IMG/VR virus record: IMGVR_UViG_3300035562_000119
Coordinates: 1 to 41,742 of that record
Origin: a virus
Taxonomy: Duplodnaviria; Caudoviricetes
DNA: 41,742 bases
Strand: one strand, 5' to 3'
The first letter of the stretch is position 1. Every line of letters begins with the position of its first letter. A program made the position numbers and the translations under genes. Below, one piece after another: positions 12,742-41,706 of this stretch. The notes beneath the pieces were generated by a model. That model was not told the origin of the DNA and searched no databases. It saw only the letters and a list, made by a program, of their open reading frames with translations.

Positions 12742-14064
12742 TTACAGTGCCTCGTAGTTGCCGAACGCGATGATCAGCCCGTACGTGTAGCAGTCGAAAA
12801 GGTCATCAGCGCGTTTGTGCGCCTTAGGGTCGGCCAGGTGGAACCCGGCGATTTGTTTGATGAGGTGATTGGCGGTGACCTGCTTGAACGTCACCGTCTT
12901 GTCGTACGCTTCCTTGGTGATTTTGCACTTACCCATGAAGTGGTGACCGGAGGCCATCACCGCACGTTCGTCCTTCCCTTTCCCGGTCAGCGCCGACTTG
13001 ATGGGTTTCATGTCCCACCCTTCGGTCTCCGCTTTCTGGTTCAGAATGGCGCCCATCGCCGCGTCTTCCATGAACACGCCCTGACTCCCCAGACGTGGGC
13101 GGCAAATCTTCGCCAGTCGCTCCAGGTTGTCGTAGACGCTCGGCATGTACTCCGGCAGCAGCGACGCCTTAATCTGCGTGACATCCCAATCGATAATCGT
13201 CAGGCGCGGCTCTGAGTAAGTCTCTTCATAGGCGAAGTAAACGAAGCCGGTACCATCGTTCTCTGTGCCGCCTTTAAGGGCCGTATCAGCTATGGCGAAG
13301 ATCATGTCGCAGGTGGTCGGCATCGCCACCGGCAGGTCGTCCTCCATCAGCTTGTTGATATCGAGCAACGCTTCAGCTGACCAGTCGACGAATTCCGCCT
13401 TAAATTCCTGCTGGAAAACACGCGGGTCGTTGCTGGCCTCTTCCTTCGCCAATTCGTCAGGAGGAACAAACGGGTTGCTCGACGTCGGCGCGTGGTGCTC
13501 GTGAAAGCCCAGCGATTTGTCGTTGCAGATGGCGTAGAAGAAGTTGTTGTCGTCGGTACCGTTCGGGGTTGAGAACACCCACGCACGACCGCGACGGGTC
13601 AGCAGTGTTGGCTTGATGGACTTGGGCCAGATTTCATTCAGCATTTCCGGTGATTTGGTAAATGCCGATTCATCCAGCAGCACAACGTCGTATTCGCGCC
13701 CACGCCCGGCTAGCGGGTTGTTGTTCGTCACCCAGAAGTCAATTTTTCCGCCGTTTTTCAGGCGAATCCGACCATCGCTGCGCGACTTTTTCTTGATGAG
13801 CGGCTGCAGCGCTTCTTCCAGATAATCGAAGATTTCCTGCTGCTGTTTGTACTCGGCGGTGAAGATGCCGACCATGCCGCCCTGTAGCCGTTCGCCGCCT
13901 GTCTCCTTGAACAGTGACGTAGCGTAGGAAATGGCAATATTGCCCAGAATAGCGGTCTTACCCCAGCGTCGTCCGCATCGCACGACGTTGTACTGGTGCT
14001 GACTGCCTTCGGTCCATACACGCGACTGAGCGGCATGCAGCTTCCTACAAAAGATTTCTGCCAT
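12742..14064 (-). CDS. terL: Terminase large subunit
   Basis: Walker A GRRWGKT, GRGREYD, Walker B VVLLDE, motif C STP, RNase H-like nuclease (IADTA...ADDLFD). Confidence 0.95.
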   Translation of the reverse strand: MAEIFCRKLHAAQSRVWTEGSQHQYNVVRCGRRWGKTAILGNIAISYATSLFKETGGERLQGGMVGIFTAEYKQQQEIFDYLEEALQPLIKKKSRSDGRIRLKNGGKIDFWVTNNNPLAGRGREYDVVLLDESAFTKSPEMLNEIWPKSIKPTLLTRRGRAWVFSTPNGTDDNNFFYAICNDKSLGFHEHHAPTSSNPFVPPDELAKEEASNDPRVFQQEFKAEFVDWSAEALLDINKLMEDDLPVAMPTTCDMIFAIADTALKGGTENDGTGFVYFAYEETYSEPRLTIIDWDVTQIKASLLPEYMPSVYDNLERLAKICRPRLGSQGVFMEDAAMGAILNQKAETEGWDMKPIKSALTGKGKDERAVMASGHHFMGKCKITKEAYDKTVTFKQVTANHLIKQIAGFHLADPKAHKRADDLFDCYTYGLIIAFGNYEAL

Positions 14065-15188
14065 CAGTCTTCGTCCTCGTCGTTTGCCTCCAGCGGGGTC
14101 TGAACAGCGCCAGGCACCTGCAGGGCGTTATGGACGACGACAAGGTTGTCTCCGTTTTTACCGTTCCGGACGTTCTCAATTTGAGCCTGAAGGAGTTCGT
14201 TGCGCAGACGAAGCGCCTCAAGTTCCAGCGCCTCTTTGTTTGCCGAAGGCTGGTTACCACCTCCCGGCGACGACCCGCGAGTGGCTTTGAGATAGGCCAG
14301 CAACTCCTTGCGAGCAGCCTCCGGACTGGCAATCTTCATCTCCAGCCCGTTCATCGTTTCTTTCACACCCAGATAGCCCCAGCGAGCAGGACCATCGAGC
14401 ATTGTGGAGTCGGCAAAAAATTGCTGCCCCCTCCCTTCCCCGTAGCAACGCGGGCAATCAGGATGAGGAGCAGCAGAATCAACAAAGCCAACTCCACCAA
14501 ATTCAGGAGGGGCGCTCTCGTTTTTTATCGCCAGGTCACAGGCTCGCTCGAACTCGTCCATGTCATTCCACTGGTACTGGTGGTCTTCACCCCAGCAGTA
14601 GCGGCAGTTGACGCGGCGGTATTGAGTCAGCTCGTTCGGGTCCATCGAGGCGATGGAAGAGAGTTGGTGAATGATTTCCGCCTCAGTGAGGGCAAGGCGT
14701 TTCTGACGCTTGTCACGTAGCCAGCGAACAGCACTCATTACCCTGGCATTTCTAAGCATGCGTGAAGCGTTGGAATTGGCCGTTGCACCCTCGCCTTCAT
14801 ATCCGGCAAGGCGGTATGCCTCAGTGAGCGACTTACCCGCAGCAACGTATTGAGCGAAGATTCCCTGCTGCTCAGAAATTCCAAAATAATCAGGGTCGAA
14901 GACGTCGTCCAAATCGTCCGACAATATTTTTTCTGAAATTTTTTCAGGATTTTTTTTCGAGGATTTTTCGGCCCGTTTATGCGCAGTTTGCGCACCATCT
15001 TTTTGCGCAGTTTTTTGCGCAGAATTGCGCAGTTTAGATTGCGCAGTTTTAGGAGGCTTTTTGATGTACCGCCGGGCTGTGGCGTAGTTGAGTCCATTCG
15101 CTTCGCACCATGCCGCCGGAGAGATTCCGGTTCGGGAGTATTCAGCGATGAACTTTTGCTGTAGTGACCCCCAATCCGGTTTACTCAT
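14064..15188 (-). CDS. terS: Terminase small subunit (N-terminal HTH, Zn-finger insert)
   Basis: Coupled to terL (TGATG); MSKPDW...HTH start, TEAYRLAGY...ASRML core, CRYC/CPRC zinc ligands. Confidence 0.88.
   Translation of the reverse strand: MSKPDWGSLQQKFIAEYSRTGISPAAWCEANGLNYATARRYIKKPPKTAQSKLRNSAQKTAQKDGAQTAHKRAEKSSKKNPEKISEKILSDDLDDVFDPDYFGISEQQGIFAQYVAAGKSLTEAYRLAGYEGEGATANSNASRMLRNARVMSAVRWLRDKRQKRLALTEAEIIHQLSSIASMDPNELTQYRRVNCRYCWGEDHQYQWNDMDEFERACDLAIKNESAPPEFGGVGFVDSAAPHPDCPRCYGEGRGQQFFADSTMLDGPARWGYLGVKETMNGLEMKIASPEAARKELLAYLKATRGSSPGGGNQPSANKEALELEALRLRNELLQAQIENVRNGKNGDNLVVVHNALQVPGAVQTPLEANDEDED
14980..15045. repeat. Cluster of six TGCGCA palindromes inside terS (candidate pac region)
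   Basis: TGCGCA at 14980, 14989, 15004, 15016, 15026 and 15040, separated by A/T tracts. Confidence 0.75.
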
Positions 15189-15191
15189 CAG

Positions 15192-15458
15192 TTATTCCTG
15201 GTTCTTCTCCACCTTCAACAACTCGCGGAGAGCAAACGCATCACCTTCCCTTGCGAGTTTGTAGAGCGCCGTTCTCAGCTCGGCTTCGCCTTTGGCTCTG
15301 CCTTTTCGAATACTGGTGTAAAACGCCTGCAGCTGGTCTTTGTCCCGTTTGATGGTGTCGAAATCGATGTCCAGCGCGTCTGCGATTTGCTGCGCCGTCA
15401 TGCGGCAGGCAGCAAGTGCTTCAATCTTCGCCTTGTCGTACTGGATCCGCTGCCTCAT
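15192..15458 (-). CDS. Small HTH protein (TerS-like N-terminal fold)
   Basis: 88 aa; MTAQQIADALDIDFDTI helix-turn-helix; overlaps the ParB-like gene and ends 3 nt before terS. Confidence 0.7.
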   Translation of the reverse strand: MRQRIQYDKAKIEALAACRMTAQQIADALDIDFDTIKRDKDQLQAFYTSIRKGRAKGEAELRTALYKLAREGDAFALRELLKVEKNQE

Positions 15459-16125
15459 CAGGAATTTCCTCCAGCTTCTGAAGCGCCAGCTCGGCGATAG
15501 TCTTCAGGGCTTCGGCGGTATTGATGATGTTCAGCTTGCTCTTGGCATCGATAACGGCTCTGAATACCAGGTCAAAGTCGCTGGCGCGTCCCGCTACAAT
15601 CAGGCGGTCTTTCGCCTTTTTCCCTATTTTTTCCAGCGCCTCTATGAACAGGGCTTTTTCTTCCGGCAGGAAGGCAATCACCATGTCTTCGTAGGTAGGC
15701 TGAACAAACGAGAGTGTCTGCACCTCAACGTCGGTGATTTTGAAATCATCGTCGGTCAGGCCAGAGTAGAGTTTCAGATCCAGGCTGTTTATCGAGTCGT
15801 ACAGCTCCCGGAGGATGTTGCTGTCATCCTTGCCTTTGATGGCGTTGTGACTGAGCTGAATCGCCTTCTGCTCATCCTCCGAGAGTTCGCTAACGATCTC
15901 GATAACGTCAGCTTCTTCCAGCCCGGCTTTTATCGCTGCCTGAGTACGGTGGTTGCCTGACAGCACCGTACCCCGGTAGACGACCGGGAGACTGGTCAGC
16001 ACACCGTCGTTTTTGATGTTGTTAACCAGCCGGGTGAATTCATCCGGATCCATGTAGTGGGCGTTCTTTTCCAGCAGCTTCAGCTCAGCCAGAGCCACGC
16101 GCCGGATGGCGGTTTCAATTGGCAT
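15421..16125 (-). CDS. ParB/Srx N-terminal domain protein
   Basis: KNAHYM...LVNNIKNDG...PVV...VLSGNHRTQAA (GxxR signature)...LSHNAIKG. Confidence 0.85.
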   Translation of the reverse strand: MPIETAIRRVALAELKLLEKNAHYMDPDEFTRLVNNIKNDGVLTSLPVVYRGTVLSGNHRTQAAIKAGLEEADVIEIVSELSEDEQKAIQLSHNAIKGKDDSNILRELYDSINSLDLKLYSGLTDDDFKITDVEVQTLSFVQPTYEDMVIAFLPEEKALFIEALEKIGKKAKDRLIVAGRASDFDLVFRAVIDAKSKLNIINTAEALKTIAELALQKLEEIPDEAADPVRQGED

Positions 16126-17392
16126 ATTTACGGTACCATTCTTGAAAAATTTCCTGCGGCGACTGCTCGCGAACCGCAGACGAGTAATTCAGGAATCCTT
16201 CCCCGCGCTTCGCCAGCTGGTAGATGCCCCGGTACTTCATGGAAACTGGCTTTGTCGTGAACGCAGTGGTGTACACCGACTGGATGTCGATGACGTACTG
16301 GCGATTGATGTGGTCGATGATGCTGCGGCTGGTTGCCAGCATAGGCACCAGCTTTGACAGCTTCCGGTGCCGCGACGTGGAGAAGTCGCTCAGCATGTAG
16401 ATGTTGTGAATTTTGTCACCGTACTGCGCCATCGAGAAGATGAATGCGCCCACCAGCATGCCATCCACAAATACCGCGAAGTTCATCATCCCGGCCTTGT
16501 GGTTGATGCCTTTTGCCAGGTAGATATTTTTCAGGAAATTCAGCTGCTGGGCGTTCAGCTGTTTAATCTCTACCTGGCTGTCAGCGGTCACCGCGTCTGG
16601 ATCGACAATCCGGTACCGGAATGGCTGGGACTTTTTGGTCTCGCGGCGCAGTGATGACCGGGCATCATTTGCGTACATGTAAATCGGCTTGTTGCTGCCG
16701 GCGAACATGATACGCGGCTCGATGTTCTCCATCCGGCGGTCGGACACAATCGCAAAGCTCTGCCCCTCCGCCACCAGCCTGTTAATCAGGTCTTCGGTAT
16801 TTTCCGGATCCCACACGCCATATGACGGTGCCGCCCAGGTGACGCTGGTGTTCACGAATTTGTAGATGTTCTCGTACCCACCCTTGTACGTCGGCGCGAA
16901 CATGATGACGGAACCGTCGTTCTCCCGCGCTGCGTCAATCTGGTGGTGGAAGTCTCCGGCGTGGAACCCGTCAATGGTGAACCCGTCGGTATAGCGCAGG
17001 AGCTTCTCCCGCTCGGTGCGGTGGTAGTCGGCCAGATTACGAATGATGTGCGCGAAATGCGCCTGACTGTATTGATTCGCGCCTTTGTACCGGGCCAGCG
17101 TTATCGCCAGACAGATTGCCGCCGTCGTCGCCACGGCATCGCCGCGCAGCTGGTTCAGCGGCTCCAGACGACCGGAAAATTCAACGCTCATGTCCTGCCC
17201 GGTCAGCAGGTTGCCGACGGCGCAGGACAGCAGCGAAACGTCGTTTCCGAATACCTTTGTATCCGGCATCAGGTTCTTGATAGCGTGTTCTGTACGGAAG
17301 GAACCGGAACAACCGATATACACGCGAGGTTTGAGGTGGATGTTGCCCAGGATCTGGGTGATCAATTTCTTCGGTATCGAGCCTATAAACAT
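16115..17392 (-). CDS. Putative DNA-modifying enzyme: adenine-methyltransferase-like N-terminus fused to a Mom/GNAT-like C-terminus
   Basis: Motif I-like YIGCSGSF, GNDVS, HAGDF, motif IV-like MFAPTY; C-terminal FAVFVDGMLVGAFIF...YMLSDF...RKLSKL...YTTAFT resembles a GNAT fold. Confidence 0.6.
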   Translation of the reverse strand: MFIGSIPKKLITQILGNIHLKPRVYIGCSGSFRTEHAIKNLMPDTKVFGNDVSLLSCAVGNLLTGQDMSVEFSGRLEPLNQLRGDAVATTAAICLAITLARYKGANQYSQAHFAHIIRNLADYHRTEREKLLRYTDGFTIDGFHAGDFHHQIDAARENDGSVIMFAPTYKGGYENIYKFVNTSVTWAAPSYGVWDPENTEDLINRLVAEGQSFAIVSDRRMENIEPRIMFAGSNKPIYMYANDARSSLRRETKKSQPFRYRIVDPDAVTADSQVEIKQLNAQQLNFLKNIYLAKGINHKAGMMNFAVFVDGMLVGAFIFSMAQYGDKIHNIYMLSDFSTSRHRKLSKLVPMLATSRSIIDHINRQYVIDIQSVYTTAFTTKPVSMKYRGIYQLAKRGEGFLNYSSAVREQSPQEIFQEWYRKYAN

Positions 17393-17420
17393 ACATTTCC
17401 CGTTATATATCAGCTATTTA

Positions 17421-17429
17421 TGCTATAAT
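17421..17429 (+). promoter_or_regulatory. Extended -10 promoter for the DUF488-like gene
   Basis: TGCTATAAT matches TGnTATAAT perfectly, ~40 nt before an ATG with GGAAGGAG RBS. Confidence 0.65.
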
Positions 17430-17469
17430 TGATAACGTAAGTTATTGTTTTAAATAGGAAGGAGTTACG

Positions 17470-17838
17470 ATGAAAACGTCCTGTTTTTCCCTCTATCGCG
17501 GCGACGGCCGTATCAGCATTGCCCGTTACGCGCCGCGCAACACGCCAGCCGGGTACCACACTTTTAAAAAGCTGGCACCGGGTGATTGGTTTAATTCGGT
17601 TCCGGTTTCCCGCTATATCGAGCTATACGAGCACGAAATACTGGCGAAACTGAATCCTGAGAAAACGTGGAATGAGCTGCACCTGCTCGCTGGTGATGCT
17701 GAGCCAGTGCTGCTGTGCTGGGAGAAGCCAGGGGAGTTCTGTCACCGGCAGCTGGTTGCCCGGTGGTTCCGGCGAGAGCTGGGGATCGCCGTTGAAGAGT
17801 ACGACCCCCGCGCTACGCCGCAGTATGATTTATTCTGA
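17470..17838 (+). CDS. DUF488-like protein (short subfamily)
   Basis: RISIAR, LAP, LLCWEKPGEFCHRQLV (LLC.E....CHR signature); strong RBS. Confidence 0.78.
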   Translation: MKTSCFSLYRGDGRISIARYAPRNTPAGYHTFKKLAPGDWFNSVPVSRYIELYEHEILAKLNPEKTWNELHLLAGDAEPVLLCWEKPGEFCHRQLVARWFRRELGIAVEEYDPRATPQYDLF

Positions 17839-17845
17839 GGAAATG

Positions 17846-17869
17846 GCCGGGGAAACCCGGCTTTTATTT
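17846..17869 (+). terminator. Rho-independent terminator after the DUF488-like gene
   Basis: GCCGGG-GAAA-CCCGGC followed by TTTTATTT. Confidence 0.75.
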
Positions 17870-18352
17870 GAAGACGAATTTATTATCCATGATTTCGACG
17901 CAAGCGGAGGCCAATATATTAGAATTAATTTCTCCCTTTACGAAATGCTGATGATTATCATAAAGGAATGCCCATCCATCTTTCACTGCTTTATTTTTAT
18001 CAAGAAGCCCCTCAGTAACCATCCACGCATTATAGCAGGCGTTGAATTTATCAATTAGCTCAGAAATCTTCGCTTGGTTTGCGATTATGTCTTTTTGACC
18101 ATTCAACTTTTCCGGTAGATGAAGCAGCGCATAACAATATTGTGAAATTGCCACTTTGAATGCCAGCTTGACCTTCAGTTCGTCTTGTTTTTTCCAACGA
18201 ACCATCGCCCAACCAGCAACGATTACTGCCATTGTCGTAAAAATCGCAGATACTGAGGCCCACACATTTGCCCAATGCGCATGTGTGATGCCCCACCAAA
18301 TGCGCCCCCATTCACAGGCTAAAATCATTTCCCAAACAGCCGCTATGTTCAT
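17864..18352 (-). CDS. Hypothetical membrane-anchored protein (AT-rich moron)
   Basis: AGGAG RBS; TM segment WASVSAIFTTMAVIVAGWAMVRW followed by a helical soluble domain. Confidence 0.7.
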   Translation of the reverse strand: MNIAAVWEMILACEWGRIWWGITHAHWANVWASVSAIFTTMAVIVAGWAMVRWKKQDELKVKLAFKVAISQYCYALLHLPEKLNGQKDIIANQAKISELIDKFNACYNAWMVTEGLLDKNKAVKDGWAFLYDNHQHFVKGEINSNILASACVEIMDNKFVFK

Positions 18353-18376
18353 CAATATCTCCTTGAGTTAAGGAGA

Positions 18377-18994
18377 CTATTCTACCCTAGTAAATGCATA
18401 ACTGCCGATTCCCTCGCGTCCAAGCTGCGTTTCGACCCGGTTAACTTCCATCAACGCGAACCCCTGTTTTGCAAACCAGCCTACGAGCCCGTCGTGAGTC
18501 CAGTACCAGATATGCTCATCCCGGCGGAAGTGGCGAGACTGTAGTACGTGCTCCGCTCCGGTAAATATCGGTACCGACACGAATACCCATTTTTCTGCAT
18601 GCCCCACGGCGACGTCCGGCCTGTCTATGTGCTCCAGACTGTCCCAGAACGTCAACGCCGGGTAGCGGTCGCGGTACAGATTGGCCCATGCGCCGCGCTT
18701 TTTCAACCACTCCACACCAGCAGGGTTTACGTCGTAGCCCTTTGTGTCAGGCCGTGCTTCAACGAATTGCCCCGCGCCAATGCCGACGTCAACAACGGTA
18801 CCGCTGTAGTGCCGTGCCACCAGCCGTATTCTTGATGCCGTCAGTTCGTGACCGAGAGGCGTGTCAGCCAGCTGCTGGTACCGCGCAAAATAGTCCTGGT
18901 CGTATGGCCTGTCTTTCGGTACCGGATAGCGCCCCATTCCCAGCTCTGGCAGCCAGACAAGGCCATGCTTGATGTGTTCAGAGAACTGTTTCAT
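18377..18994 (-). CDS. Class I SAM-dependent methyltransferase (glycan/small-molecule type)
   Basis: YDQDYF, VVDVGIGAG (motif I), GYDVNP, FWDSLEHI, HIWYW; no DPPY/NPPF or PC DNA-methylase motif. Confidence 0.85.
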   Translation of the reverse strand: MKQFSEHIKHGLVWLPELGMGRYPVPKDRPYDQDYFARYQQLADTPLGHELTASRIRLVARHYSGTVVDVGIGAGQFVEARPDTKGYDVNPAGVEWLKKRGAWANLYRDRYPALTFWDSLEHIDRPDVAVGHAEKWVFVSVPIFTGAEHVLQSRHFRRDEHIWYWTHDGLVGWFAKQGFALMEVNRVETQLGREGIGSYAFTRVE

Positions 18995-19899
18995 GCAGCC
19001 CTCCGGCTACGCGCAGCGTTGTAGGTGTTCTCGATGAAACCGTGCACCTTCTCCTGTAGGCGGCTTATCGCCTTGTCGCAGTCATGGACCATTTCCTGAC
19101 AGCTGCAGTAATTATCCGGGTAGATGAACAACGCCCGGGATAAGTCCATGCACCGTGGATCCGTGACCTTCAGATGGTGGTTATTGCCGCCGTTTCCACC
19201 ACCGAGGCAAATCATCGGTCTTTCGTACGCCAGCGCCGCATGCATGATGACGCATGGCCCGGTCAGCACAATGTCGGCGCTCTCCACCAGCGCCAGCATT
19301 TGCCAGATGGTGAGTTCACCGCAGTGAAATTTTTGGTGTGCGAACGGCTCGCCATCGGGGATCCATTCCTGGCCTTCCTGCACGTCAGCCACGCTGATAA
19401 CGTGAAATCCGCGAATGGCGAGCTGGCGGGCGACATCATCAATATACTGGTTCAGCGGCCCACGGCTGGCGTTATGCCATTCGGTCCGCTCGGTGGTAGG
19501 ACGGATAACTGCCACCGGCTTACCGTCCGGCGTACGGATCCCGGCAGGTTTATATCGTGGTAAATCCAAACGGGCCGGACGGGTACCAAACTGCTGTTCC
19601 ATCGCGGCGAAGATGCTGCCCTGCTGCAGGTGCCCATTTCCGTAGAAAATGCGGCTGCGTGGGATGCCTGGCGGTTCCGGTTCAAATCGAACCAGAGAGT
19701 GCTGCTCGCTTTTTTGCTGCGTACGCAACGGCGAGTTCGCATGCACAAAGTGCACATTCGGGATACCGAGATAAATTTCCGGCAGCGGCGTTTTCAGCCA
19801 GATTTCATGGCCTTTCTCCACCAGCGCCTTCACGAAGCAGCGCTGGTTGATGTTATCGCCGATGCCATGCATCCCATCAAAGTAGATTTTTTCAGGCAT
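18991..19899 (-). CDS. Glycosyltransferase, GT9 (ADP-heptose:LPS heptosyltransferase-like) GT-B fold
   Basis: N-terminal HGIGD; C-terminal LTIWQMLALVESADIVLT...MHAALAYERPMICLGG; Cys-rich tail CSC..HDC. Confidence 0.78.
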   Translation of the reverse strand: MPEKIYFDGMHGIGDNINQRCFVKALVEKGHEIWLKTPLPEIYLGIPNVHFVHANSPLRTQQKSEQHSLVRFEPEPPGIPRSRIFYGNGHLQQGSIFAAMEQQFGTRPARLDLPRYKPAGIRTPDGKPVAVIRPTTERTEWHNASRGPLNQYIDDVARQLAIRGFHVISVADVQEGQEWIPDGEPFAHQKFHCGELTIWQMLALVESADIVLTGPCVIMHAALAYERPMICLGGGNGGNNHHLKVTDPRCMDLSRALFIYPDNYCSCQEMVHDCDKAISRLQEKVHGFIENTYNAARSRRAA

Positions 19900-20437
19900 T
19901 AAGTGCCGCCTCAAAGGTTGAGCGTGGAAAACAGGTCAGCGCGGTATGCCGCGAAGCGTTGATGATTCGAACGCCGGGCAGCAGGCCAACCAGTGAAGAG
20001 AAATCGTCGTGCCAGCGCCCTACTTCTCGCGGTACCGGATTATGCATCGTTGCCGGATGCCGACCGTGCCAGTGGGCACCGTTCGCCAGTGTGCAGTCGT
20101 AACCGAGGAGAATGACCCGGTCAGCGCCAAGGTGGGCAGCGAGTTGAATAGCCCGCTGGCCGGAGTTAAAAGGCCCGCTATCGGACGGTCGGAAAATTTG
20201 CACATCGAATCTGTCGCTGGCCCGCTGGCTTTGTGTCCACAGCTGCGCCGTGGCGCTGACGGCGTCACGGTAGTGATTCCACCAGTCATAATCGGCAGCA
20301 AAGATGTGCTGGCAATCCGGCACCGCCAGCCAGCTCGAGTTAACGGCGATAATCGGCAGCCCGGAGCGACTGGCCTGGGCGCAATCCTCCTTCGTCAGCG
20401 ACGGGCCGCTGGCGATGCAGATGAAAGTTTGAGTCAT
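19892..20437 (-). CDS. Maf/CstII/DUF115-like glycosyltransferase-fold protein
   Basis: FICIASGPSL, IIAVN, IFAAD, NSG..AIQLAAHLGADRVILLGYDC, HWH, IINAS: the motif series of CMP-sugar transferase/MptE-like proteins. Confidence 0.72.
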   Translation of the reverse strand: MTQTFICIASGPSLTKEDCAQASRSGLPIIAVNSSWLAVPDCQHIFAADYDWWNHYRDAVSATAQLWTQSQRASDRFDVQIFRPSDSGPFNSGQRAIQLAAHLGADRVILLGYDCTLANGAHWHGRHPATMHNPVPREVGRWHDDFSSLVGLLPGVRIINASRHTALTCFPRSTFEAALNA

Positions 20438-20457
20438 TGGAGTCTTCAGGGGGGTTA

Positions 20458-20495
20458 GCATTATCGCAGGCACTCGGCGAATGCCTGCTGTAATA
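20458..20495. promoter_or_regulatory. Stem-loop of the type found downstream of Rz in lambdoid late operons
   Basis: ATTATCGCAGGCACTC-GGC-GAATGCCTGCTGTAAT imperfect inverted repeat. Confidence 0.55.
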
Positions 20496-20498
20496 CTG

Positions 20499-21104
20499 TT
20501 ACTTGCACAAATCAGTCAGATCTTCAAAACTAACTACGGAGGTCACATAGTTGACATCGATTCTGAACTCTTTAACGGGGGATTTTCCGCTCAAATCCAA
20601 AGTCAATACCTTGCCTTTTCTGGTGAGCAACGAAGGAACAATCGACTTGATCCATAATTCACCCAATGAGTCTGTAGAGAAAAACGCGTAATCGATCAGC
20701 ACAATGTCGTATTCACGCCCACGACCGGCCAACAGATTTACGCCACTCCAGAAATCAACCCGAGTACCATTTTTCAATCGAAGGCGTCCGCTACTCACAG
20801 AACTTTGCTCAATATCTGTTTTCAGGGAGACTTTCAGACGAAGATGTAAATTTTCGCTATCGTCATCTGATGCAGAGAAAATGCCGACACGAAAATCATT
20901 GGGTTTCGCATCGTCATCTTTATTTTTTCCTTCCAGAGCGAAAAACGCTGATGCAACAATTCGTCCCAAGCGTTCGGCCTTGTCGATATCGGCTTTTTCA
21001 TTGCCTTGAGGAAGTACGCAGGGCCTAATCTGTTCGGCAATCATGACCTCCAGTGCCCTGGCCGCATGTTCTTTAGAGCTTTGCGACAAATCATTAAATT
21101 TCAT
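20499..21104 (-). CDS. Protein containing a diverged fragment of the TerL ATPase domain
   Basis: Residues ~73-164 align with TerL 65-159 of this window (VGIF...GRxRLKNG..DFW...LAGRGREYD...W.KSI.P.LLTR.G); ATGA overlap with the Rz stop. Confidence 0.8.
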   Translation of the reverse strand: MKFNDLSQSSKEHAARALEVMIAEQIRPCVLPQGNEKADIDKAERLGRIVASAFFALEGKNKDDDAKPNDFRVGIFSASDDDSENLHLRLKVSLKTDIEQSSVSSGRLRLKNGTRVDFWSGVNLLAGRGREYDIVLIDYAFFSTDSLGELWIKSIVPSLLTRKGKVLTLDLSGKSPVKEFRIDVNYVTSVVSFEDLTDLCK

Positions 21105-21631
21105 TTTTTCTCCGATTGAGCTGTCACTTTGTCGTAGGTTCGCTCGCAGGTGCTGCCGGCGACATAACGCTCATCAGCCTCTTTTGCGAATTTTCCCGCC
21201 AGATCGTCAGCTTCGCCGAGCAGCTGGGCGAGCAGTATTCCGGCCTGGGCTTTTGCCGCGCTTGCTGCTGCAACTGCGGAAAGGCGGCCGGTTTCACTTC
21301 TTGCGAGTTGCCGCTGTATTTCGGTGAGCTGCCGCTGCAGCCCGTCACCAGCACGCTGAGCAGCGTCAGCATCAGCCTGCACTTTTGCCAGTTCTTCGTT
21401 AGCACGTTTCTGCTCCTCATCCGCAGCTCGCTGGCGGCGCTGTTCTTCGGCGCGGTTGGCGACTTCCTGATGCAGGGTAGCGGTTGAATCTGCCAGATCG
21501 CGCTGCAACCACAGTCCCCGCCATTCGGCATCCTTCGAATCAGCCCCGGCGTCATACGTCTTCCATAACAAAAAAGCCACCAGCAGTGTCACCGCCAGTG
21601 GCTTCCAGTATTTTTGGACGAAAAGGAGCAT
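21101..21631 (-). CDS. Rz: i-spanin (Rz-like, DUF2514 type)
   Basis: N-terminal TM helix, long Ala/Gln coiled-coil, C-terminal GSTCERTYD; directly after the endolysin. Confidence 0.85.
   Translation of the reverse strand: MLLFVQKYWKPLAVTLLVAFLLWKTYDAGADSKDAEWRGLWLQRDLADSTATLHQEVANRAEEQRRQRAADEEQKRANEELAKVQADADAAQRAGDGLQRQLTEIQRQLARSETGRLSAVAAASAAKAQAGILLAQLLGEADDLAGKFAKEADERYVAGSTCERTYDKVTAQSEKK
21124..21405 (-). CDS. Rz1: o-spanin lipoprotein embedded in Rz (alternate frame)
   Basis: GAGGAG RBS 7 nt before GTG; signal peptide ending in lipobox LVTG/C; Pro-rich mature part with CSPSC. Confidence 0.75.
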   Translation of the reverse strand: MLTKNWQKCRLMLTLLSVLVTGCSGSSPKYSGNSQEVKPAAFPQLQQQARQKPRPEYCSPSCSAKLTIWRENSQKRLMSVMSPAAPASEPTTK

Positions 21632-25006: not shown

Positions 25007-26716
25007 ATGACCAGTGAAGTTTTCAACACAGACGAATTTTTCTCTCCAGCCCCAAGTGACCTTGTGGACAACCTGATGGGGAGATACCACCTTGAACGCC
25101 AAAAAATTGAGTCTTTAGCGGCGATTATGAGCGATAACGACTCTCAGGTAGCCGTGGGGCACTTCCTAACGGGAAACGTCGATAGAGAGCGTTACAGGGG
25201 GGTTCCTGACGTGAGTGAAATTTTTAGGCGTGATGGCGCAATCGCCCACCTCAACGCTACGTACTGGCAGAACGCCCTGCTGCTCACTGATGTGCTCGAT
25301 GTCATGCCAGCGAAGAGGCGCGAGCAGTGGAATGAGCAAATCAGAAACCCGCAGGGAATCAAGGCCCCGCGACTCAGCCAATACGATATTGCCCGTGGGG
25401 TTGAGCAGGAAGAGTGGAGCCTGGCACCGCTTCCGGAATTTGAAGAGGAAACGGTCAGATCGACTCTGATGGACATGCTCAGCTCCCGCGCCAAATTCTT
25501 CGGAGAGCGCGTTGATGGCATTTTCCGGGCGTTATCTGGCGAGCATGTCACAAACCGACCGGAGGGTTTCAGTAAGCGCATGATTTTGTCCAGTGTCTAC
25601 GACTCCTGGGGAATGACGAATTATAAAATGGTCAACTACGTGCTGGATTTGCGGCAGGTGATTGCACGGTTCATGGGTAGGCCAGAACCGTCGTACGAAC
25701 TGACAAACAAAGCGATGAAGACAGCACGTGACTATCCTGGAGAGTGGATATCCATCGACGGCGGCGAAATGCGTATCTGCGCATACCTAAAGGGGACTGC
25801 GCATTTTGAGATCCATCCAAACATGGCCTGGCGTCTGAACTGCATTCTCGCGAGCCTCTACCCCACGGCGATCCCCTCTGAATTTCGCGTGAAGCCAAAG
25901 AAAACAATCAAGAATTTTGTCTTGATGGAAAACGCGCTGCCTGTTTCAGTTCTGCAGGATCTATGCAGTCTCGAAATTGATGAATATCGCCCCATACAGC
26001 GCCATAAGTGGGACAAGCCAATCGAACCCAAAACGCGCAATCCGTTCAATCGGGTGTTCCGCGGCGGCGGGGCAACATCCGATCGCTTCGTCAGGAGCGA
26101 ATCCGAACGCGTGCTCTCATCCGTTGGTGGAGCAAAATTCACCGAAGGGACCTGGACCTGGTGGGAATTCGACTATGATCCAACCCGCGTACTGGCTGAG
26201 ATTATCGCCTCCGGTTGCGTACCAGACGATAAGAGCCATCAATTTTACCCTACCCCGCCTGAGCTGGCCGAGTACTGCGTGGCCCTGGCCGGAATCGAAC
26301 CTAACCACACCTGCCTCGAACCAAGCGCCGGTCACGGTGGTCTCGCGTCATTTATGCCTGTGGACCAGACAATATGCGTTGAAATATCCCCGCTAAAATG
26401 CCAGGTCCTTGATAGCAAGGGGTTTCGGGTATACGAAGCTGACTTTCTGAAATGGGCAGCAAACGGGGGTTGTTTCGACAGGATCGTGATGAATCCCCCC
26501 TTCAGCGATGGCCGAGCATTACTGCACCTGCAGGCGGCTTCCACGCTCACGAAAACAGGCTCAAGAATTATTGCCGTCCTGCCGGCGAGCATGCGCGGTA
26601 AGGACGTGTTACCGGATGAGTGGAATTGCACCTGGTCTGAGCCACGCAGCGGAGAGTTTGCTGGAACAAGCGTGTCGGTAGTTGTGTTGACGGCAGAACG
26701 CCAATGGAAAAAGTGA
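25007..26716 (+). CDS. DUF4942-domain protein with C-terminal amino-DNA methyltransferase
   Basis: GIFRALSGEHVTN..GF.KRMI domain; FYPTP, LEPSAGHG (motif I), MNPPF (motif IV). Confidence 0.82.
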   Translation: MTSEVFNTDEFFSPAPSDLVDNLMGRYHLERQKIESLAAIMSDNDSQVAVGHFLTGNVDRERYRGVPDVSEIFRRDGAIAHLNATYWQNALLLTDVLDVMPAKRREQWNEQIRNPQGIKAPRLSQYDIARGVEQEEWSLAPLPEFEEETVRSTLMDMLSSRAKFFGERVDGIFRALSGEHVTNRPEGFSKRMILSSVYDSWGMTNYKMVNYVLDLRQVIARFMGRPEPSYELTNKAMKTARDYPGEWISIDGGEMRICAYLKGTAHFEIHPNMAWRLNCILASLYPTAIPSEFRVKPKKTIKNFVLMENALPVSVLQDLCSLEIDEYRPIQRHKWDKPIEPKTRNPFNRVFRGGGATSDRFVRSESERVLSSVGGAKFTEGTWTWWEFDYDPTRVLAEIIASGCVPDDKSHQFYPTPPELAEYCVALAGIEPNHTCLEPSAGHGGLASFMPVDQTICVEISPLKCQVLDSKGFRVYEADFLKWAANGGCFDRIVMNPPFSDGRALLHLQAASTLTKTGSRIIAVLPASMRGKDVLPDEWNCTWSEPRSGEFAGTSVSVVVLTAERQWKK

Positions 26717-36533: not shown

Positions 36534-36790
36534 TGGACGCCGCACTGAACTACGCCATTCACAGAATCATAGAGCTGGAGACCATGCTGCTGCCAGTTGT
36601 GCCGGAAACCGTCTGGCCTGCCGAAGTCCAGTCCGTTTTTTCACAGATTGAACGTGCCGGGAATCTCCCGGCGCACCACCAACGGCGCCTGATGCATCAC
36701 ATCAACCGGATGTGGCTCGACCGTCTTCCGGTACCGGCGATTACTGTCGCCGCCCGTTCGCTGGCTGAAGCAATGGAGGAGTATGCGTGA
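36533..36790 (+). CDS. Hypothetical protein
   Basis: TAATG coupling upstream and GTGA overlap downstream; 85 aa. Confidence 0.65.
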   Translation: MDAALNYAIHRIIELETMLLPVVPETVWPAEVQSVFSQIERAGNLPAHHQRRLMHHINRMWLDRLPVPAITVAARSLAEAMEEYA

Positions 36791-38769
36791 ACGAAATCAT
36801 CGTAGATAATTTTGCCGGAGGCGGCGGTGCCAGCACCGGGATCGAGATGGCTACGGGCCGTAGCGTGGACATTGCTATCAACCACGACCAAAACGCCGTA
36901 GCGATGCACACGACAAACCATCCTAATACCCTGCATTATTGCGAATCGGTATTTACCGTTAAGCCTCAGGTGGTGACGGCTGGCCGGAAAGTCGGCCTGG
37001 TCTGGCTTTCTCCAGATTGTCGCCACTTCTCCAAAGCCAAAGGTGCAAAGCCGGTAGAACGAGAGATCCGCGGCCTCGCGTGGATCGGAGTTCGCTGGGG
37101 GCTGGACGTCGAGCCCAGAATGATGATTCTTGAAAATGTGCCGGAATTTCAGACGTGGGGGCCGCTACTGGCTCCGGAAATGCGCCCTGACCCTGAACGA
37201 GTCGGCGAAACATTCAAGGCGTTTGTCGGCATGCTGACTACCGGGATATCTCCAGATCATCCAGCACTGGCAGAATGCTGTGAATTTTTGGAGATTTCGC
37301 CAGACAGCAAGCAGGCGCAGCAGCTGGTTAAAGGCCTGGGTTATCAGGTTGAATACCGCGAACTCCGCGCATGTGATTATGGCACCCCCACGATTCGCAA
37401 ACGCTTCTTCATGGTAATGCGTTGCGATGGTCGTCCGATTGTCTGGCCGGAAGCTACCCACGGCGACCCAAAGACCGAGGCGGTCAAATATGGGAAACTC
37501 AAGCCGTGGCGTACGGCGGCGGAATGCATCGACTGGTCGATCCCCTGCCCGTCTATTTTTGGCAGGAAAAAGCCGCTGGCGGCGAACACCATGCGCCGTA
37601 TTGCTCGCGGTATCCAGCGTTATGTGAAAGATACTGACCGACCATTCATCGTTAAGTGCAACCACACCAGCAGCAAGAATTCATACGATTGTTTCCGTGG
37701 GCAGGACCTGCTGGATCCCCTGCAAACCATCACCAAAAAACACGGGTACGCGGTGGTTATCCCGCACCTGACAAAATTCCGTACCGGGGCTACCGGGCAG
37801 CCAGTCACGGCACCGTCACCCACTGTCACGGCAGGCACTTCAGTGCGCCCCGGTGGTAACGGTCACGCACTCGGTCTGGTTCAGGCTCACTGCATTCCGT
37901 TTGCTGCCGGGAACGGCGGGAGTGAGTACCAGGCCAAGCCGCGCCCGCTCAACAAACCTTTCCATACAGTCCTGAAGGAGTCCCGCGCCTGCGTCGTTAC
38001 GCCGATTATCGTACGTCAGTTCGGTAAAAGTGTGGCGCACCGGGCCGATACGCCACTCGGTACCATCACTGCAGGAGGTGGCGGAAAAAGCCAGATTACC
38101 GCTGCTACTTTGATTCAGGTCGGATATGGCGAACGCCCGGGCCAAGCTCCCCGCGTACCGGGGCTGGGGAAACCACTCGGTACCGTAGTCGCTGGTGGTG
38201 GAAAGCATGCACTGGTAGCTGCGCATATGGTGAAGCACTTCGGCGGCAACTATTCCGGTGCTGGCGTTGGCATGAATGAGCCCGCCCACACGGTCACCGT
38301 CACAGATCACCATGCTCTGGTTACTTCTCACCTCGTCAAACTTCGTGGTACCTGCCGTGACGGTCAGCACACCGATACGCCAGCGCCCACGGTAACCGCT
38401 GGTGGTCTGCATCTGGGCAACATCGAGACAACGCTGGCACCTGCAGATGCTCATTACCCGCATGCTGAAGCCGTGCGTGAATTTTTGCGTGAGTATCTCG
38501 GCGAGGACGCCACCGAATTTGTGGAAATTGACGGAGAAATTTATCGGATTGTCGATATCGGCATGCGCATGCTGCAGCCGCACGAGTTGTATCTGTGCCA
38601 GGGCTTCCCGAAGTGGTACATCATCGACCGCGATTATCTCGGCCAGAAGTACCCGAAAGACAAACAAGTAGCACGGTGCGGCAACGCGGTACCACCGCAG
38701 TTCGCTGAAGCACTGGTCAGGGCCAACCTACCCGAAATGTGTGTTCAACGTGAGGACCAGGCCGCATGA
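36787..38769 (+). CDS. DNA (cytosine-5) methyltransferase with a long repetitive variable region
   Basis: Motif I FAGGGG, IV SPDC, VI ENV, VIII TIRKR, IX RML, X GNAV. Confidence 0.92.
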   Translation: MNEIIVDNFAGGGGASTGIEMATGRSVDIAINHDQNAVAMHTTNHPNTLHYCESVFTVKPQVVTAGRKVGLVWLSPDCRHFSKAKGAKPVEREIRGLAWIGVRWGLDVEPRMMILENVPEFQTWGPLLAPEMRPDPERVGETFKAFVGMLTTGISPDHPALAECCEFLEISPDSKQAQQLVKGLGYQVEYRELRACDYGTPTIRKRFFMVMRCDGRPIVWPEATHGDPKTEAVKYGKLKPWRTAAECIDWSIPCPSIFGRKKPLAANTMRRIARGIQRYVKDTDRPFIVKCNHTSSKNSYDCFRGQDLLDPLQTITKKHGYAVVIPHLTKFRTGATGQPVTAPSPTVTAGTSVRPGGNGHALGLVQAHCIPFAAGNGGSEYQAKPRPLNKPFHTVLKESRACVVTPIIVRQFGKSVAHRADTPLGTITAGGGGKSQITAATLIQVGYGERPGQAPRVPGLGKPLGTVVAGGGKHALVAAHMVKHFGGNYSGAGVGMNEPAHTVTVTDHHALVTSHLVKLRGTCRDGQHTDTPAPTVTAGGLHLGNIETTLAPADAHYPHAEAVREFLREYLGEDATEFVEIDGEIYRIVDIGMRMLQPHELYLCQGFPKWYIIDRDYLGQKYPKDKQVARCGNAVPPQFAEALVRANLPEMCVQREDQAA

Positions 38770-39263: not shown

Positions 39264-39500
39264 ATGCACGAACTGACGTTATCACCGAGCGAAATTCAGG
39301 AGATTACGGGGTATAAACGGTACACGCAGCAACAGCACCAGCTGCGTTGTCACGGGATCCCTTTCACTACCGGCCAAAAAAATGAGCCTATCGTTTTGCG
39401 CCGAAACTTCCAGCAGCCCGTCGAGCCGCTGCCGAAGGCATCCGAGTACCTTTCTCCTGAACCAAATTATGGAGCACTGGACAATGGGCAGACCACGTAA
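39264..39500 (+). CDS. xis: Excisionase-like protein (DUF4224)
   Basis: LSPSEIQEITGYKRYTQQ...L...GIPF...EPIV; EPNYGAL tail; overlaps the int start. Confidence 0.8.
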   Translation: MHELTLSPSEIQEITGYKRYTQQQHQLRCHGIPFTTGQKNEPIVLRRNFQQPVEPLPKASEYLSPEPNYGALDNGQTT

Positions 39501-40506
39501 GAACCACAAAGATAACCGACTTCCCCCGCGGGTATATCGAAACAATTACAGCTATTTCTGGAAGCCGCAGGACAGCCAGACCTGCATCACCCTGGCACCG
39601 ATCTCCGGTACCAGCATGTCCACGCTGTGGGCAAAGTACGAAGCGATCAAGGCCAAGCAGCATAACGAGATGACCGTTGCCAAGCTCTGGAACCTGTTTC
39701 TCGAAAGTCCGGTGTTCACCGAACTGGCGCCGCGCACTCAGAAAGACTACCGGCAGCACCAGCGGGCGCTGCTGGGGGTGTTTGGAAAAATGCGGGCTGA
39801 CAGCGTTAAGACAGAACAAATCAGGATCTTCATGGATAAAAGAGGGCTTGAGAGTAAAACACAGGCGAACCATGAAATGGCAAGCCTGAGCCGGGTGTAT
39901 GGCTGGGGATTTGAACGAGGGTACGCGAAGGGGAACCCGTGCAAAGGGGTGCGGAAATTCACCTCGAAGCCGCGCACCGTCTACATCAGTGATGAGCAGT
40001 ACGCCGCGATCTATGAAGAGGCAATCCCGGCGCTGCGCGTGGCGATGGAGGTTTCATACCTTTGCGCAGCTCGCCAGGGGGACGTTCTGGAGATGGTCTG
40101 GGGCGATGTTATGGACGCAGGTCTTTTTATCGAGCAGAACAAAACCGGGACCAAGCAGATCAAGGAGTGGTCTCCTCGCCTCCGGTCAGCGTTTCAGCTC
40201 GCAAGAAATACCTTGGGCGAGAATGGAAAATACGTCATCACTAACTCTAACGGTGAAAAGGTAACGGGCAGGACGATTAACAAGTGGTGGGATAAAGCCA
40301 AGAAATCCGCTGAGCAAAAAGCAGGTGTGCCGTTCGGATGCACTTTCCACGATATCAAAGCGAAGTCGATTTCTGACTATAAGGGATCGAGCCGTGACAA
40401 GCAGCTATTCTCCGGTCACAAAACCGAGAGTCAGGTGCTGGTATATGATCGAAAAGTGAAGGTGACGCCGACGTTGGACGCGCCACTTTTGGCGGGAAAC
40501 TCCTAG
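39484..40506 (+). CDS. int: Tyrosine integrase
   Basis: MGRPRK..DNRLPPRVY arm-binding start; AARQGD (R), QNKTG (K), FHDIKAK, GHK, VYDR (Y). Confidence 0.95.
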   Translation: MGRPRKNHKDNRLPPRVYRNNYSYFWKPQDSQTCITLAPISGTSMSTLWAKYEAIKAKQHNEMTVAKLWNLFLESPVFTELAPRTQKDYRQHQRALLGVFGKMRADSVKTEQIRIFMDKRGLESKTQANHEMASLSRVYGWGFERGYAKGNPCKGVRKFTSKPRTVYISDEQYAAIYEEAIPALRVAMEVSYLCAARQGDVLEMVWGDVMDAGLFIEQNKTGTKQIKEWSPRLRSAFQLARNTLGENGKYVITNSNGEKVTGRTINKWWDKAKKSAEQKAGVPFGCTFHDIKAKSISDYKGSSRDKQLFSGHKTESQVLVYDRKVKVTPTLDAPLLAGNS

Positions 40507-41618: not shown

Positions 41619-41706
41619 TGGCGGAAGCGCAGAGATTCGAACTCTGGAACCCTTTCGGGTCGCCGGTTTTCAAGACCGGTGCCTTCAACCGCTCGGCCAC
41701 ACTTCC
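41619..41706 (-). tRNA. serT: tRNA-Ser (anticodon TGA), prophage integration target
   Basis: GGAAGTGTGGCCGAGCGGTTGAAGGCACCGGTCTTGAAAACCGGCGACCCGAAAGGGTTCCAGAGTTCGAATCTCTGCGCTTCCGCCA: 88 nt, long variable arm, CCA end. Confidence 0.98.

What the first reader, a model, noticed from the sequence alone, without database searches (positions are those of the whole stretch)
20499..21104. Probably catalytically dead partial copy of the phage's own terminase ATPase: possible decoy or packaging regulator
Seen: residues ~73-164 (20613-20888) align with TerL residues 65-159 (13588-13872), about 45 of ~95 identical by hand count, e.g. GRLRLKNGTRVDFW/GRIRLKNGGKIDFW, LAGRGREYDIVLIDY/LAGRGREYDVVLLDE, ELWIKSIVPSLLTRKG/EIWPKSIKPTLLTRRG. 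Walker A, the catalytic Walker B Glu (DE to DY), motif C (STP) and the nuclease domain are all missing. The fragment is fused to an unrelated N-terminus, the frame is intact, it is coupled to Rz, and the DNA is diverged and AT-richer, so it does not look like fresh debris. Established: Avs (STAND NTPase) defences are triggered by binding large terminase. Inference: a TerL mimic transcribed ahead of TerL that titrates terminase sensors, or a dominant-negative subunit that tunes its own, or blocks a competitor's, packaging motor.
Basis: partly seen in the sequence, partly recalled or inferred. Interest (0 to 1): 0.85.

Follow-up and report, generated by a model that had tools for sequence, protein, structure and literature searches.

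The report
Dead terminase half-domain, possible immune decoy
Right after its cell-bursting genes, a bacterial virus carries an intact, swappable gene built from half of a DNA-packaging enzyme with the catalytic parts missing; the protein is predicted to fold and likely acts as a decoy for bacterial sensors of that enzyme, which is untested.

Summary
Observation confirmed. ORF 20499-21104(-) joins a two-helix phage micro-domain (res 1-63), half of a large-terminase (TerL) ATPase (res 73-169, 47/100 identical to this phage's TerL) and a non-TerL tail. Walker A, the Walker B Glu, motif C and the nuclease are missing.

The gene fills a swappable slot between Rz and a conserved hairpin. In other phages this slot is empty or holds small genes, including Acb2- and Acb4-family sponges (11 of 106 distinct hairpin-adjacent proteins).

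Three remote relatives exist, all singletons; none keeps the catalytic Glu, and one shares the tail. Substitution patterns favour selection on the protein, but dN/dS cannot be used because synonymous sites are saturated.

The kept half holds the putative trans-arginine finger and the face that Avs2's C-terminal sensor binds. The ATP contacts needed for Avs2 activation are gone.

Best reading: a non-activating terminase-sensor decoy (0.35). Rivals: a folded passenger with another role (0.30) or a packaging-ring cap (0.18). Against the decoy: Ksap1/2 bind the same sensor domain and activate it, the family is very rare, and binding and expression are untested. The scan noted two unrelated terminase-fragment genes on other DNA before.

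The parts
20499..21104 (-). 201-aa mosaic ORF (P0001): N-module + dead TerL ATPase half-domain + tail
20907..21104 (-). N-module, res 1-66, two predicted helices; phrog_26625-like; also begins P0007 and P0023 and occurs as a stand-alone 87-aa gene in L190
20598..20888 (-). TerL-derived segment, res 73-169 (VGIF strand, helix, beta-hairpin, Walker B strand, helix, motif C strand); matches T4 gp17 from about residue 180 onward
20721..20723 (-). R128, kept; aligns with P74-26 R139 (trans arginine finger) and T4 gp17 R245 (Avs2 C-terminal-domain contact)
20688..20693 (-). Walker B D138-Y139: catalytic Glu (own TerL E132, T4 E256) replaced by Tyr
20499..20597 (-). C-terminal tail, res 170-201 plus stop; predicted strand + helix; 11/32 identical without gaps to P0017; no stored TerL scores above 34
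21110..21113 (-). GGAG Shine-Dalgarno-like motif inside the Rz 3' end; ATG overlaps the Rz TGA (translational coupling, inferred)
21101..21631 (-). Rz-like spanin (DUF2514 / phrog_312): left boundary of the slot
20457..20497 (-). Conserved hairpin, right boundary of the slot (z -2.7; no Rfam family); exact core found in at least 120 viral contig stretches
12742..14064 (-). The phage's intact TerL (440 aa; Walker A res 31-37, DE at 131-132, STP); residues 65-164 (13573-13872) are the homologous segment

Best explanation
The gene encodes a catalytically dead half of a terminase ATPase, predicted to fold on its own, that likely works as a non-activating decoy for terminase-sensing immune proteins such as Avs2. 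Shown: the gene's build, the missing catalytic parts, the swappable slot, three remote relatives. Inferred steps: (1) it is made in the late operon, coupled to Rz and about 6.4 kb ahead of TerL; (2) the tail closes the sheet where the Walker A strand was lost; (3) the kept face docks in the sensor's C-terminal domain; (4) without a P-loop, bound ATP and the Walker B Glu, it cannot build the ATP-bridged contact with the TPR domain that promotes tetramer formation, so it would occupy sensors before TerL builds up.
For: Slot: the ORF replaces a 10-12 nt junction between Rz and the hairpin in 3 of 4 runs laid; the slot is empty in L004, L005 and L011. Of 106 distinct proteins ending at this hairpin, 10 form an Acb2-like cluster (3 of 3 tested hit PF24729) and 1 is PF13876, the Acb4 family. 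Selection on the protein: codon position 2 identity exceeds position 1 by 0.22 (P 0.001 in each of 3 neutral models, 1000 runs each); changes are conservative (BLOSUM P 0.009-0.02); 2% of 400 neutral runs stay stop-free; conserved TerL columns are kept 20 of 29 against variable ones 7 of 43. The tail is as conserved with P0017 (11/32, 0 of 100000 shuffles reach the score) as the core (20/63). Surfaces: by alignment to T4 gp17 and the contacts listed in bioRxiv 10.64898/2026.08.25.746987, all 7 C-terminal-domain contacts lie in the kept segment and 6 of 7 equal own TerL. Of 10 TPR/ATP-side residues, 8 lie in the deleted part and the other 2 (E198, E256) are changed. That paper reports that loss of ATP-contacting sensor residues weakens tetramer formation and activation.
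Against: [quoted passage not shown] The 6 of 7 enrichment is not significant once conservation is matched (P 0.12), and the relatives keep fewer contacts (P0007 4 of 7, P0017 3 of 7, P0023 3 of 4). The contact map comes from a different terminase and sensor. The family is very rare: four singletons; 0 of 49 other phage records have a second copy, 37 of them showing their TerL; no full-length relative in viral, genome or metagenome scans. Most slot occupants are of unknown function (DUF2560 35 of 106). The P0007 and P0023 fragments end at different points. Hydrophobic-to-hydrophobic retention was not significant (9 of 15, P 0.12-0.24).
Confidence: 0.35

Rival explanations
1. Folded passenger or recycled scaffold. 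A TerL piece was shuffled into the Rz-coupled slot behind a common phage micro-domain and is kept because it folds harmlessly or has gained a role unrelated to terminase; catalytic residues eroded because nothing needed them.
For: The slot is full of mosaic proteins; P0007 adds a third, common slot module (42 loci). The four fragments differ in length and are no closer to each other (10/34 to 30/70) than to TerL (23/69 to 35/72). Branches are long (0.3-3.8 against about 0.1 or less for most close TerLs). All are singletons. Retention tracks general fold conservation, with no significant excess at sensor contacts. G106 and T153 are lost as consistently as E132.
Against: A non-TerL tail is kept between two proteins only 33% identical. 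Surface arginines R121 and R123 are kept as R or K in 4 of 4 fragments, which folding alone need not require.
Confidence: 0.3
2. Packaging-motor modulator. The fragment keeps the arginine-finger face but not the ATP-site face, so it could dock on one TerL subunit and cap ring assembly. That would slow its own motor or poison that of a related co-infecting phage.
For: R128 aligns with P74-26 R139, the residue mutated in 4znj, described as the trans arginine finger (PMC5727402). The closest TerLs are the phage's own cluster. TerL inhibitors exist (Gpi, PMC11417361; TerI, 10.1101/2025.02.27.640495; abstracts only).
Against: Only 46% identity to the cognate TerL, low for a self-interface. A late, Rz-coupled gene would mainly harm its own phage. 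The closest relatives package without it. The position of the arginine finger differs between terminases (D6E R158).
Confidence: 0.18
3. Ksap-like protein. It has some other phage function, possibly anti-defence against a different system, and is an activator rather than a blocker of Avs2.
For: Ksap1/2 have a 4-6-stranded sheet with helices facing the C-terminal sensor and activate Avs2; the authors suggest they may be anti-defence proteins (PMC13601566). The predicted fold here is of similar kind. A cost on Avs2 hosts would fit the rarity.
Against: It gives no reason for deriving the fold from TerL. No sequence link to Ksap was tested.
Confidence: 0.1
4. Neutral duplication debris of TerL decaying in a variable region.
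For: Rare, AT-shifted and absent from close relatives. dN/dS cannot exclude it because synonymous sites are saturated even among close TerLs (pS 0.50-0.79). If the donor were a distant TerL, part of the conservative pattern would be inherited.
Against: Open frame at about 54% amino-acid divergence (2% of neutral runs are stop-free), in-frame indels only, position 2 over position 1 bias (P 0.001), and a conserved tail in P0017.
Confidence: 0.07

Closest known systems
Large terminase ATPase, Terminase_6N / phrog_2 type (own TerL; T4 gp17; P74-26 TerL)
   Same: 47% identity over 100 aa to own TerL. The model aligns to T4 gp17 180-311 (Z 8.6, rmsd 4.0, 115 aligned) and P74-26 57-217 (Z 8.2, rmsd 4.5, 119 aligned).
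   Different: No adenine-binding motif, Walker A, catalytic Glu, motif C, lid or nuclease; foreign N-module and tail.
T4 vs.8, a stand-alone terminase-ATPase paralog (PMC13601566)
   Same: A second terminase-ATPase-like gene in a phage that has an intact TerL; function unknown.
   Different: vs.8 keeps Walker A and B and activates EcAvs2 on co-expression. This ORF lacks both, holds only half the domain and is fused to other modules.
Ksap1 / Ksap2, non-terminase activators of Avs2 (PMC11564622, PMC13601566)
   Same: Small lineage-restricted phage proteins with a terminase-like sheet and helices, predicted to meet the C-terminal sensor domain.
   Different: Ksap proteins show no clear sequence homology to TerL and are shown activators. 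This ORF descends from TerL and its effect is untested.
Acb2/Tad1 and Acb4 sponge proteins
   Same: Found in the same post-Rz slot in other phages; the same titration logic as proposed here.
   Different: They bind nucleotide signals. No sequence match to this ORF; the Atlas hit of the N-module to the Acb2/Tad1 hairpin (TM 0.51) is under the bar for a name.
Gpi (PLE satellite) and TerI (Listeria prophage) packaging inhibitors
   Same: Small proteins that block a terminase motor, as in the second rival.
   Different: By their abstracts Gpi is satellite-encoded and TerI defends lysogens. Neither is described there as a TerL fragment.

Membership tests
Active large terminase (TerL) | ASCE ATPase core homologous to TerL | tested here: met
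   (the part after the Walker A helix only)
Active large terminase (TerL) | Walker A P-loop | tested here: not met
   match starts at TerL 65; Walker A is at 31-37
Active large terminase (TerL) | Walker B Asp plus catalytic Glu | tested here: not met
   DE reads DY; Glu is 100% conserved in 53 non-redundant TerLs
Active large terminase (TerL) | Motif C and C-terminal RNase H-like nuclease | tested here: not met
   STP reads LDL and the protein ends at 201
vs.8-like stand-alone terminase ATPase | Walker A and B retained | tested here: not met
   definition from PMC13601566
vs.8-like stand-alone terminase ATPase | Co-occurs with an intact TerL in the same phage | tested here: met
Ksap-like Avs2 ligands | Small alpha/beta domain with a central 4-6-stranded sheet | tested here: inconclusive
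   AF2 pLDDT about 90 over res 71-170, but driven by a TerL-rich alignment; single-sequence model pLDDT 40
Ksap-like Avs2 ligands | Binds and activates Avs2 | not testable with these tools
   needs co-expression and pull-down; no Avs2 sequence was in hand
Anti-Avs / terminase-sensor decoy (proposed) | Keeps the sensor-facing surface, lacks the ATP-bridged activation contacts | tested here: inconclusive
   6 of 7 against 0 of 10 by homology transfer from T4 gp17; matched P 0.12; weaker in relatives
Anti-Avs / terminase-sensor decoy (proposed) | Suppresses TerL-triggered defence | not testable with these tools
   bench test needed
Anti-phage defence system (PADLOC) | Match to a defence-protein model | tested here: inconclusive
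   0 families at E 0.01; absence does not exclude an undescribed system
Acb2/Tad1 sponge | PF24729 hairpin domain | tested here: not met
   no PF24729 hit for the ORF, while slot neighbours hit at E 1e-16 or better

The most novel reading that the evidence does not exclude
Phages have turned their own immune trigger into an antidote: a family of late-expressed, TerL-derived half-domains that keep the sensor-docking (arginine-finger) face, drop the ATP-bridged activating face, and act as competitive antagonists of terminase-sensing STAND receptors from an anti-defence slot behind the lysis genes.
Probability: 0.3. Interest if true: 0.85.

Novelty: new variant of a known kind. Interest (0 to 1): 0.6.

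Why it matters
Avs and Upx sensors read terminase features that a phage cannot easily mutate, so how phages escape them is an open question. A natural terminase half-domain without the ATP site is a ready-made test of whether sensor binding can be separated from activation. If it blocks, it is an anti-defence mechanism built from the trigger itself, and my searches found none in print. If it activates, it defines a minimal trigger and links Ksap- and vs.8-like proteins to TerL fragments. If it caps the motor, it is a natural dominant-negative probe of the trans-arginine interface.

Tried and rejected
Homolog searches without full-length relatives: viral contigs with P0001, A2, P0017 and P0023; genome contigs; metagenomes (none; one search gave 3 loci, two full TerLs and one partial TerL-like match); GenBank phages and plasmids (only TerL-region hits or none); E. 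coli genomes and phages by DNA (listed best rows cover only Rz or endolysin). The word-index search missed the three relatives with P0001 alone, and N-module fusions over 134 aa gave only the three already known, so absence is weak evidence.

A taxon-wide GTDB search could not be centred from a virus record. No DNA context is available for P0007, P0017 or P0023, so their slot, frame ends and dN/dS are unknown; P0023 (1044-bp contig) and P0017 (2713-bp contig) may be incomplete.

dN/dS of 0.28 against own TerL was rejected as evidence because pS is already 0.50-0.79 among close TerLs. Residue numbers in the conservation table are off by one; one search has the correct ones. A single origin of the four fragments is allowed (76% of bootstrap trees) but not shown, given long branches.

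The single-sequence fold was poor (pLDDT 40). Small-GTPase fold hits (Z up to 9.1) are near the background for this search and were read as topology only. The DUF3297 hit is below its cut-off. P0067 matches the tail through a repeat and was treated as chance.

No RNA holder was listed, which says nothing on expression. No promoter or terminator signal above chance was found near the ORF.

The 2022 Avs1-4 paper was not held. Paper searches (listings) showed no TerL-derived Avs inhibitor; most subscription journals are not covered.

Full report
SETTING. The window is an IMG/VR provirus record, 80% complete. It is a temperate phage whose TerL clusters at 90% with proteins named from Salmonella, Citrobacter and Yokenella. 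The late genes run on the minus strand: holins, endolysin, Rz (DUF2514), the ORF, a sialyltransferase-like / GT9 / methyltransferase trio, a DAM-like-GNAT gene, a ParB-like gene, two TerS-like genes, TerL and portal (the endolysin label comes).

OBSERVATION. Confirmed. The 201-aa ORF matches TerL 65-164 with its residues 73-169, 47/100 identical, E 8e-26. Walker A (TerL 31-37) is outside the match, DE reads DY, STP reads LDL, and there is no nuclease. GC is 0.44 and GC3 0.45, against 0.56 and 0.73 for TerL; some other slot genes are also AT-rich, so this is not specific. The ATG overlaps the Rz stop, with GGAG 5 nt upstream.

ANATOMY. Three modules. (i) Residues 1-63 match phrog_26625; a related 87-aa stand-alone gene lies among early-region-like genes of another prophage (L190; probability 94%). 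(ii) The TerL half-domain. (iii) A 32-aa tail that no stored TerL matches (best score 34). AlphaFold2 with a 41-row, mostly TerL alignment gives pLDDT 78, about 90 over 71-170, with two N-terminal helices and a tail strand plus helix. This confidence is borrowed from TerL: the single-sequence model scored 40 and the ESM Atlas model 0.67. The model aligns to T4 gp17 180-311 (Z 8.6) and P74-26 57-217 (Z 8.2), and over 69-200 to small GTPases at similar Z. From this I infer that the tail closes the sheet edge left by the lost Walker A strand.

THE SLOT. DNA identity to relatives stops at the end of Rz (about 21123) and resumes at the hairpin (20497). L004, L005 and L011 have Rz directly followed by the hairpin, and 3 of 4 runs join 20494 to 21122/3 with 10-12 other bases. 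The hairpin core occurs in at least 120 viral stretches (the scan hit its limit). Among 122 ORFs ending at it (106 distinct proteins) are DUF2560 (35), an Acb2/Tad1 cluster (10; 3 of 3 tested hit PF24729), Rha (4), PF13876 (1), Rz itself (6) and many unknowns (which scanned 28 representatives). PF13876 is the Acb4 family (10.1101/2024.12.30.630793, passages). In the 90 loci mapped, Acb2 is the hairpin-adjacent gene in 7 and the Acb4-family gene in 1. The slot is thus a swappable late-gene site that sometimes holds anti-defence sponges. Among the other slot proteins I saw no TerL fragment, and 0 of 49 other phage records had a second match to the fusion profile.

RELATIVES. Of 76 hits among 1.84 billion representatives I read 14 sequences directly and aligned the matching regions of most others. 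Three share the build; the rest that I examined look like TerLs or TerL fragments, plus one repeat protein. P0007 (282 aa) is N-module + fragment + a module common in this slot (42 loci). P0023 (197 aa) is N-module + linker + fragment ending at Walker B. P0017 (96 aa) aligns without gaps to 107-201, 31/95 identical, including the tail (11/32; 0 of 100000 shuffles). All are singletons and no DNA context was available for them. None keeps the catalytic Glu (Y, N, D, or absent). Each is closest to the window's own TerL cluster. The tree places all four inside a starred group with it (96/94), on end branches of 1.27, 2.32, 0.31 and 3.81. With the ORF alone, the nearest row is again a cluster member but no starred group holds it. 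Placing the ORF with distant TerLs was not rejected in one set (p-AU 0.116) and was rejected in the other, from which the three other fragments and three long TerL rows had been dropped (0.028). Two loop lengths resemble the distant group.

SELECTION. dN/dS is unusable: pS is 0.69 to own TerL but already 0.50-0.79 among close TerLs. Other tests favour constraint. Position 2 identity is 0.71 against 0.49 at position 1 (P 0.001) and substitutions are conservative (P 0.009-0.02), even against a null that forbids stops. 2% of 400 free neutral runs stay open, and conserved columns are kept 20 of 29 against 7 of 43. Hydrophobic retention alone was not significant. These tests assume a donor close to own TerL. 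The shared tail does not depend on that assumption.

WHICH FACE IS KEPT. Own R121 (ORF R128) aligns with the P74-26 residue mutated in 4znj, described as the trans arginine finger; D6E uses a different position (PMC5727402, passages). The profile aligns to T4 gp17 183-309, and the residue numbers in bioRxiv 10.64898/2026.08.25.746987 (passages and section 7; figures and supplements not seen) fit that sequence. Its 7 C-terminal-domain contacts (E227, D242, R245, N247, Q271, S275, S276) all fall in the kept half, 6 of them identical to own TerL. Of 10 TPR/ATP-side residues, 8 (Q138, R140, Q143, R162, Q163, G165, K166, T167) are deleted, and E198 and E256 are changed. The enrichment has P 0.04 unmatched and 0.12 conservation-matched, and it is weaker in the relatives.

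MECHANISM. Best reading (0.35): a late, Rz-coupled, folded half-domain that docks in terminase sensors without forming the ATP-bridged activating contact. Read-through ahead of TerL follows from the lambdoid late-operon layout (recalled knowledge; the window has a Q gene). The main counter-evidence is in PMC13601566 (parts 1-4 of 7 read; figures and supplements not seen): Ksap1/2 are predicted to engage mainly the C-terminal sensor and activate; vs.8 activates; Walker B mutants mostly still trigger Upx. PMC11564622 (passages) notes that something seems to prevent terminase recognition during SECphi18 infection, which leaves room for antagonists. Rivals: folded passenger or recycled scaffold (0.30), ring-capping packaging modulator (0.18), Ksap-like activator (0.10), neutral debris (0.07).

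KNOWN KINDS AND NOVELTY. It is not a terminase: three defining features fail. It is like T4 vs.8 in being a second TerL-ATPase-derived gene, but it lacks both Walker motifs. Reported anti-Avs proteins in the EVADES preprint (passages) are a DNA ligase and a nucleotide-binding protein, not TerL fragments. PMC13581612, PMC13728456, PMC5512222 and PMC7824862 (passages) added nothing on decoys; Gpi and TerI were seen as abstracts only. Paper searches listed no TerL-derived sensor inhibitor. Two earlier scan notes describe unrelated terminase-fragment genes in an archaeal virus and a freshwater phage (not checked by me), so the theme may recur.

VERDICT. A real, probably selected, very rare mosaic gene; a new variant of stand-alone terminase-ATPase paralogs; function untested, with one cheap decisive assay. 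Interest 0.6.

Noticed in passing
window 20457-20497 (-) and loci L066-L185: A conserved hairpin closes a swappable post-Rz gene slot in many phages; occupants include Acb2/Tad1 and Acb4-family sponges, Rha, DUF2560 and many small unknown families. These unknowns are candidates for anti-defence proteins. The hairpin has no Rfam match.
   Followed up: partly
window 18377-20473 (-): A three-gene block (sialyltransferase-like/MptE-like, GT9-like glycosyltransferase, methyltransferase) sits between lysis and terminase genes and is conserved in at least 7 related loci (L004, L005, L010-L013, L020); its target is unknown.
   Followed up: no
window 15421-17838: A ParB-like gene, a DAM-like + GNAT fusion (PF22555 + PF22559) and an opposite-strand DUF488-N3a gene lie just upstream of TerS, conserved in L004, L009, L010, L011 and L013; possibly a DNA-modification module.
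   Followed up: no
window 15192-15458 and 14064-15188 (-): Two adjacent genes both match small-terminase families (phrog_309, 88 aa; phrog_51, 374 aa).
   Followed up: no
window 41622-41706 (-): A tRNA gene at the prophage edge near the integrase (39382-40506), probably the attachment site.
   Followed up: no
L190:1501-1761 (+): A stand-alone 87-aa relative of the ORF's N-module lies among early-region-like genes of another prophage.
   Followed up: partly
L046, L047, L049, L053, L055, L058, L060, L062 (slot) and P0007 res 232-282: A ~50-aa C-terminal module is fused to many different N-terminal parts in this slot and has no Pfam family.
   Followed up: partly
L004:5188-6202: Two tandem paralogs of the window's 163-aa gene (17864-18355, phrog_6169), which is AT-rich (GC 0.41).
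   Followed up: no
L048:10888-11802: The TerL open frame is only 305 codons in this provirus, against 426-464 in the others, so it may be broken.
   Followed up: no
window 25007-26716 and 36787-38769 (+): Two methyltransferase-like genes (DUF4942 with MTase hits; C5 cytosine methylase) besides the DAM-like gene.
   Followed up: no
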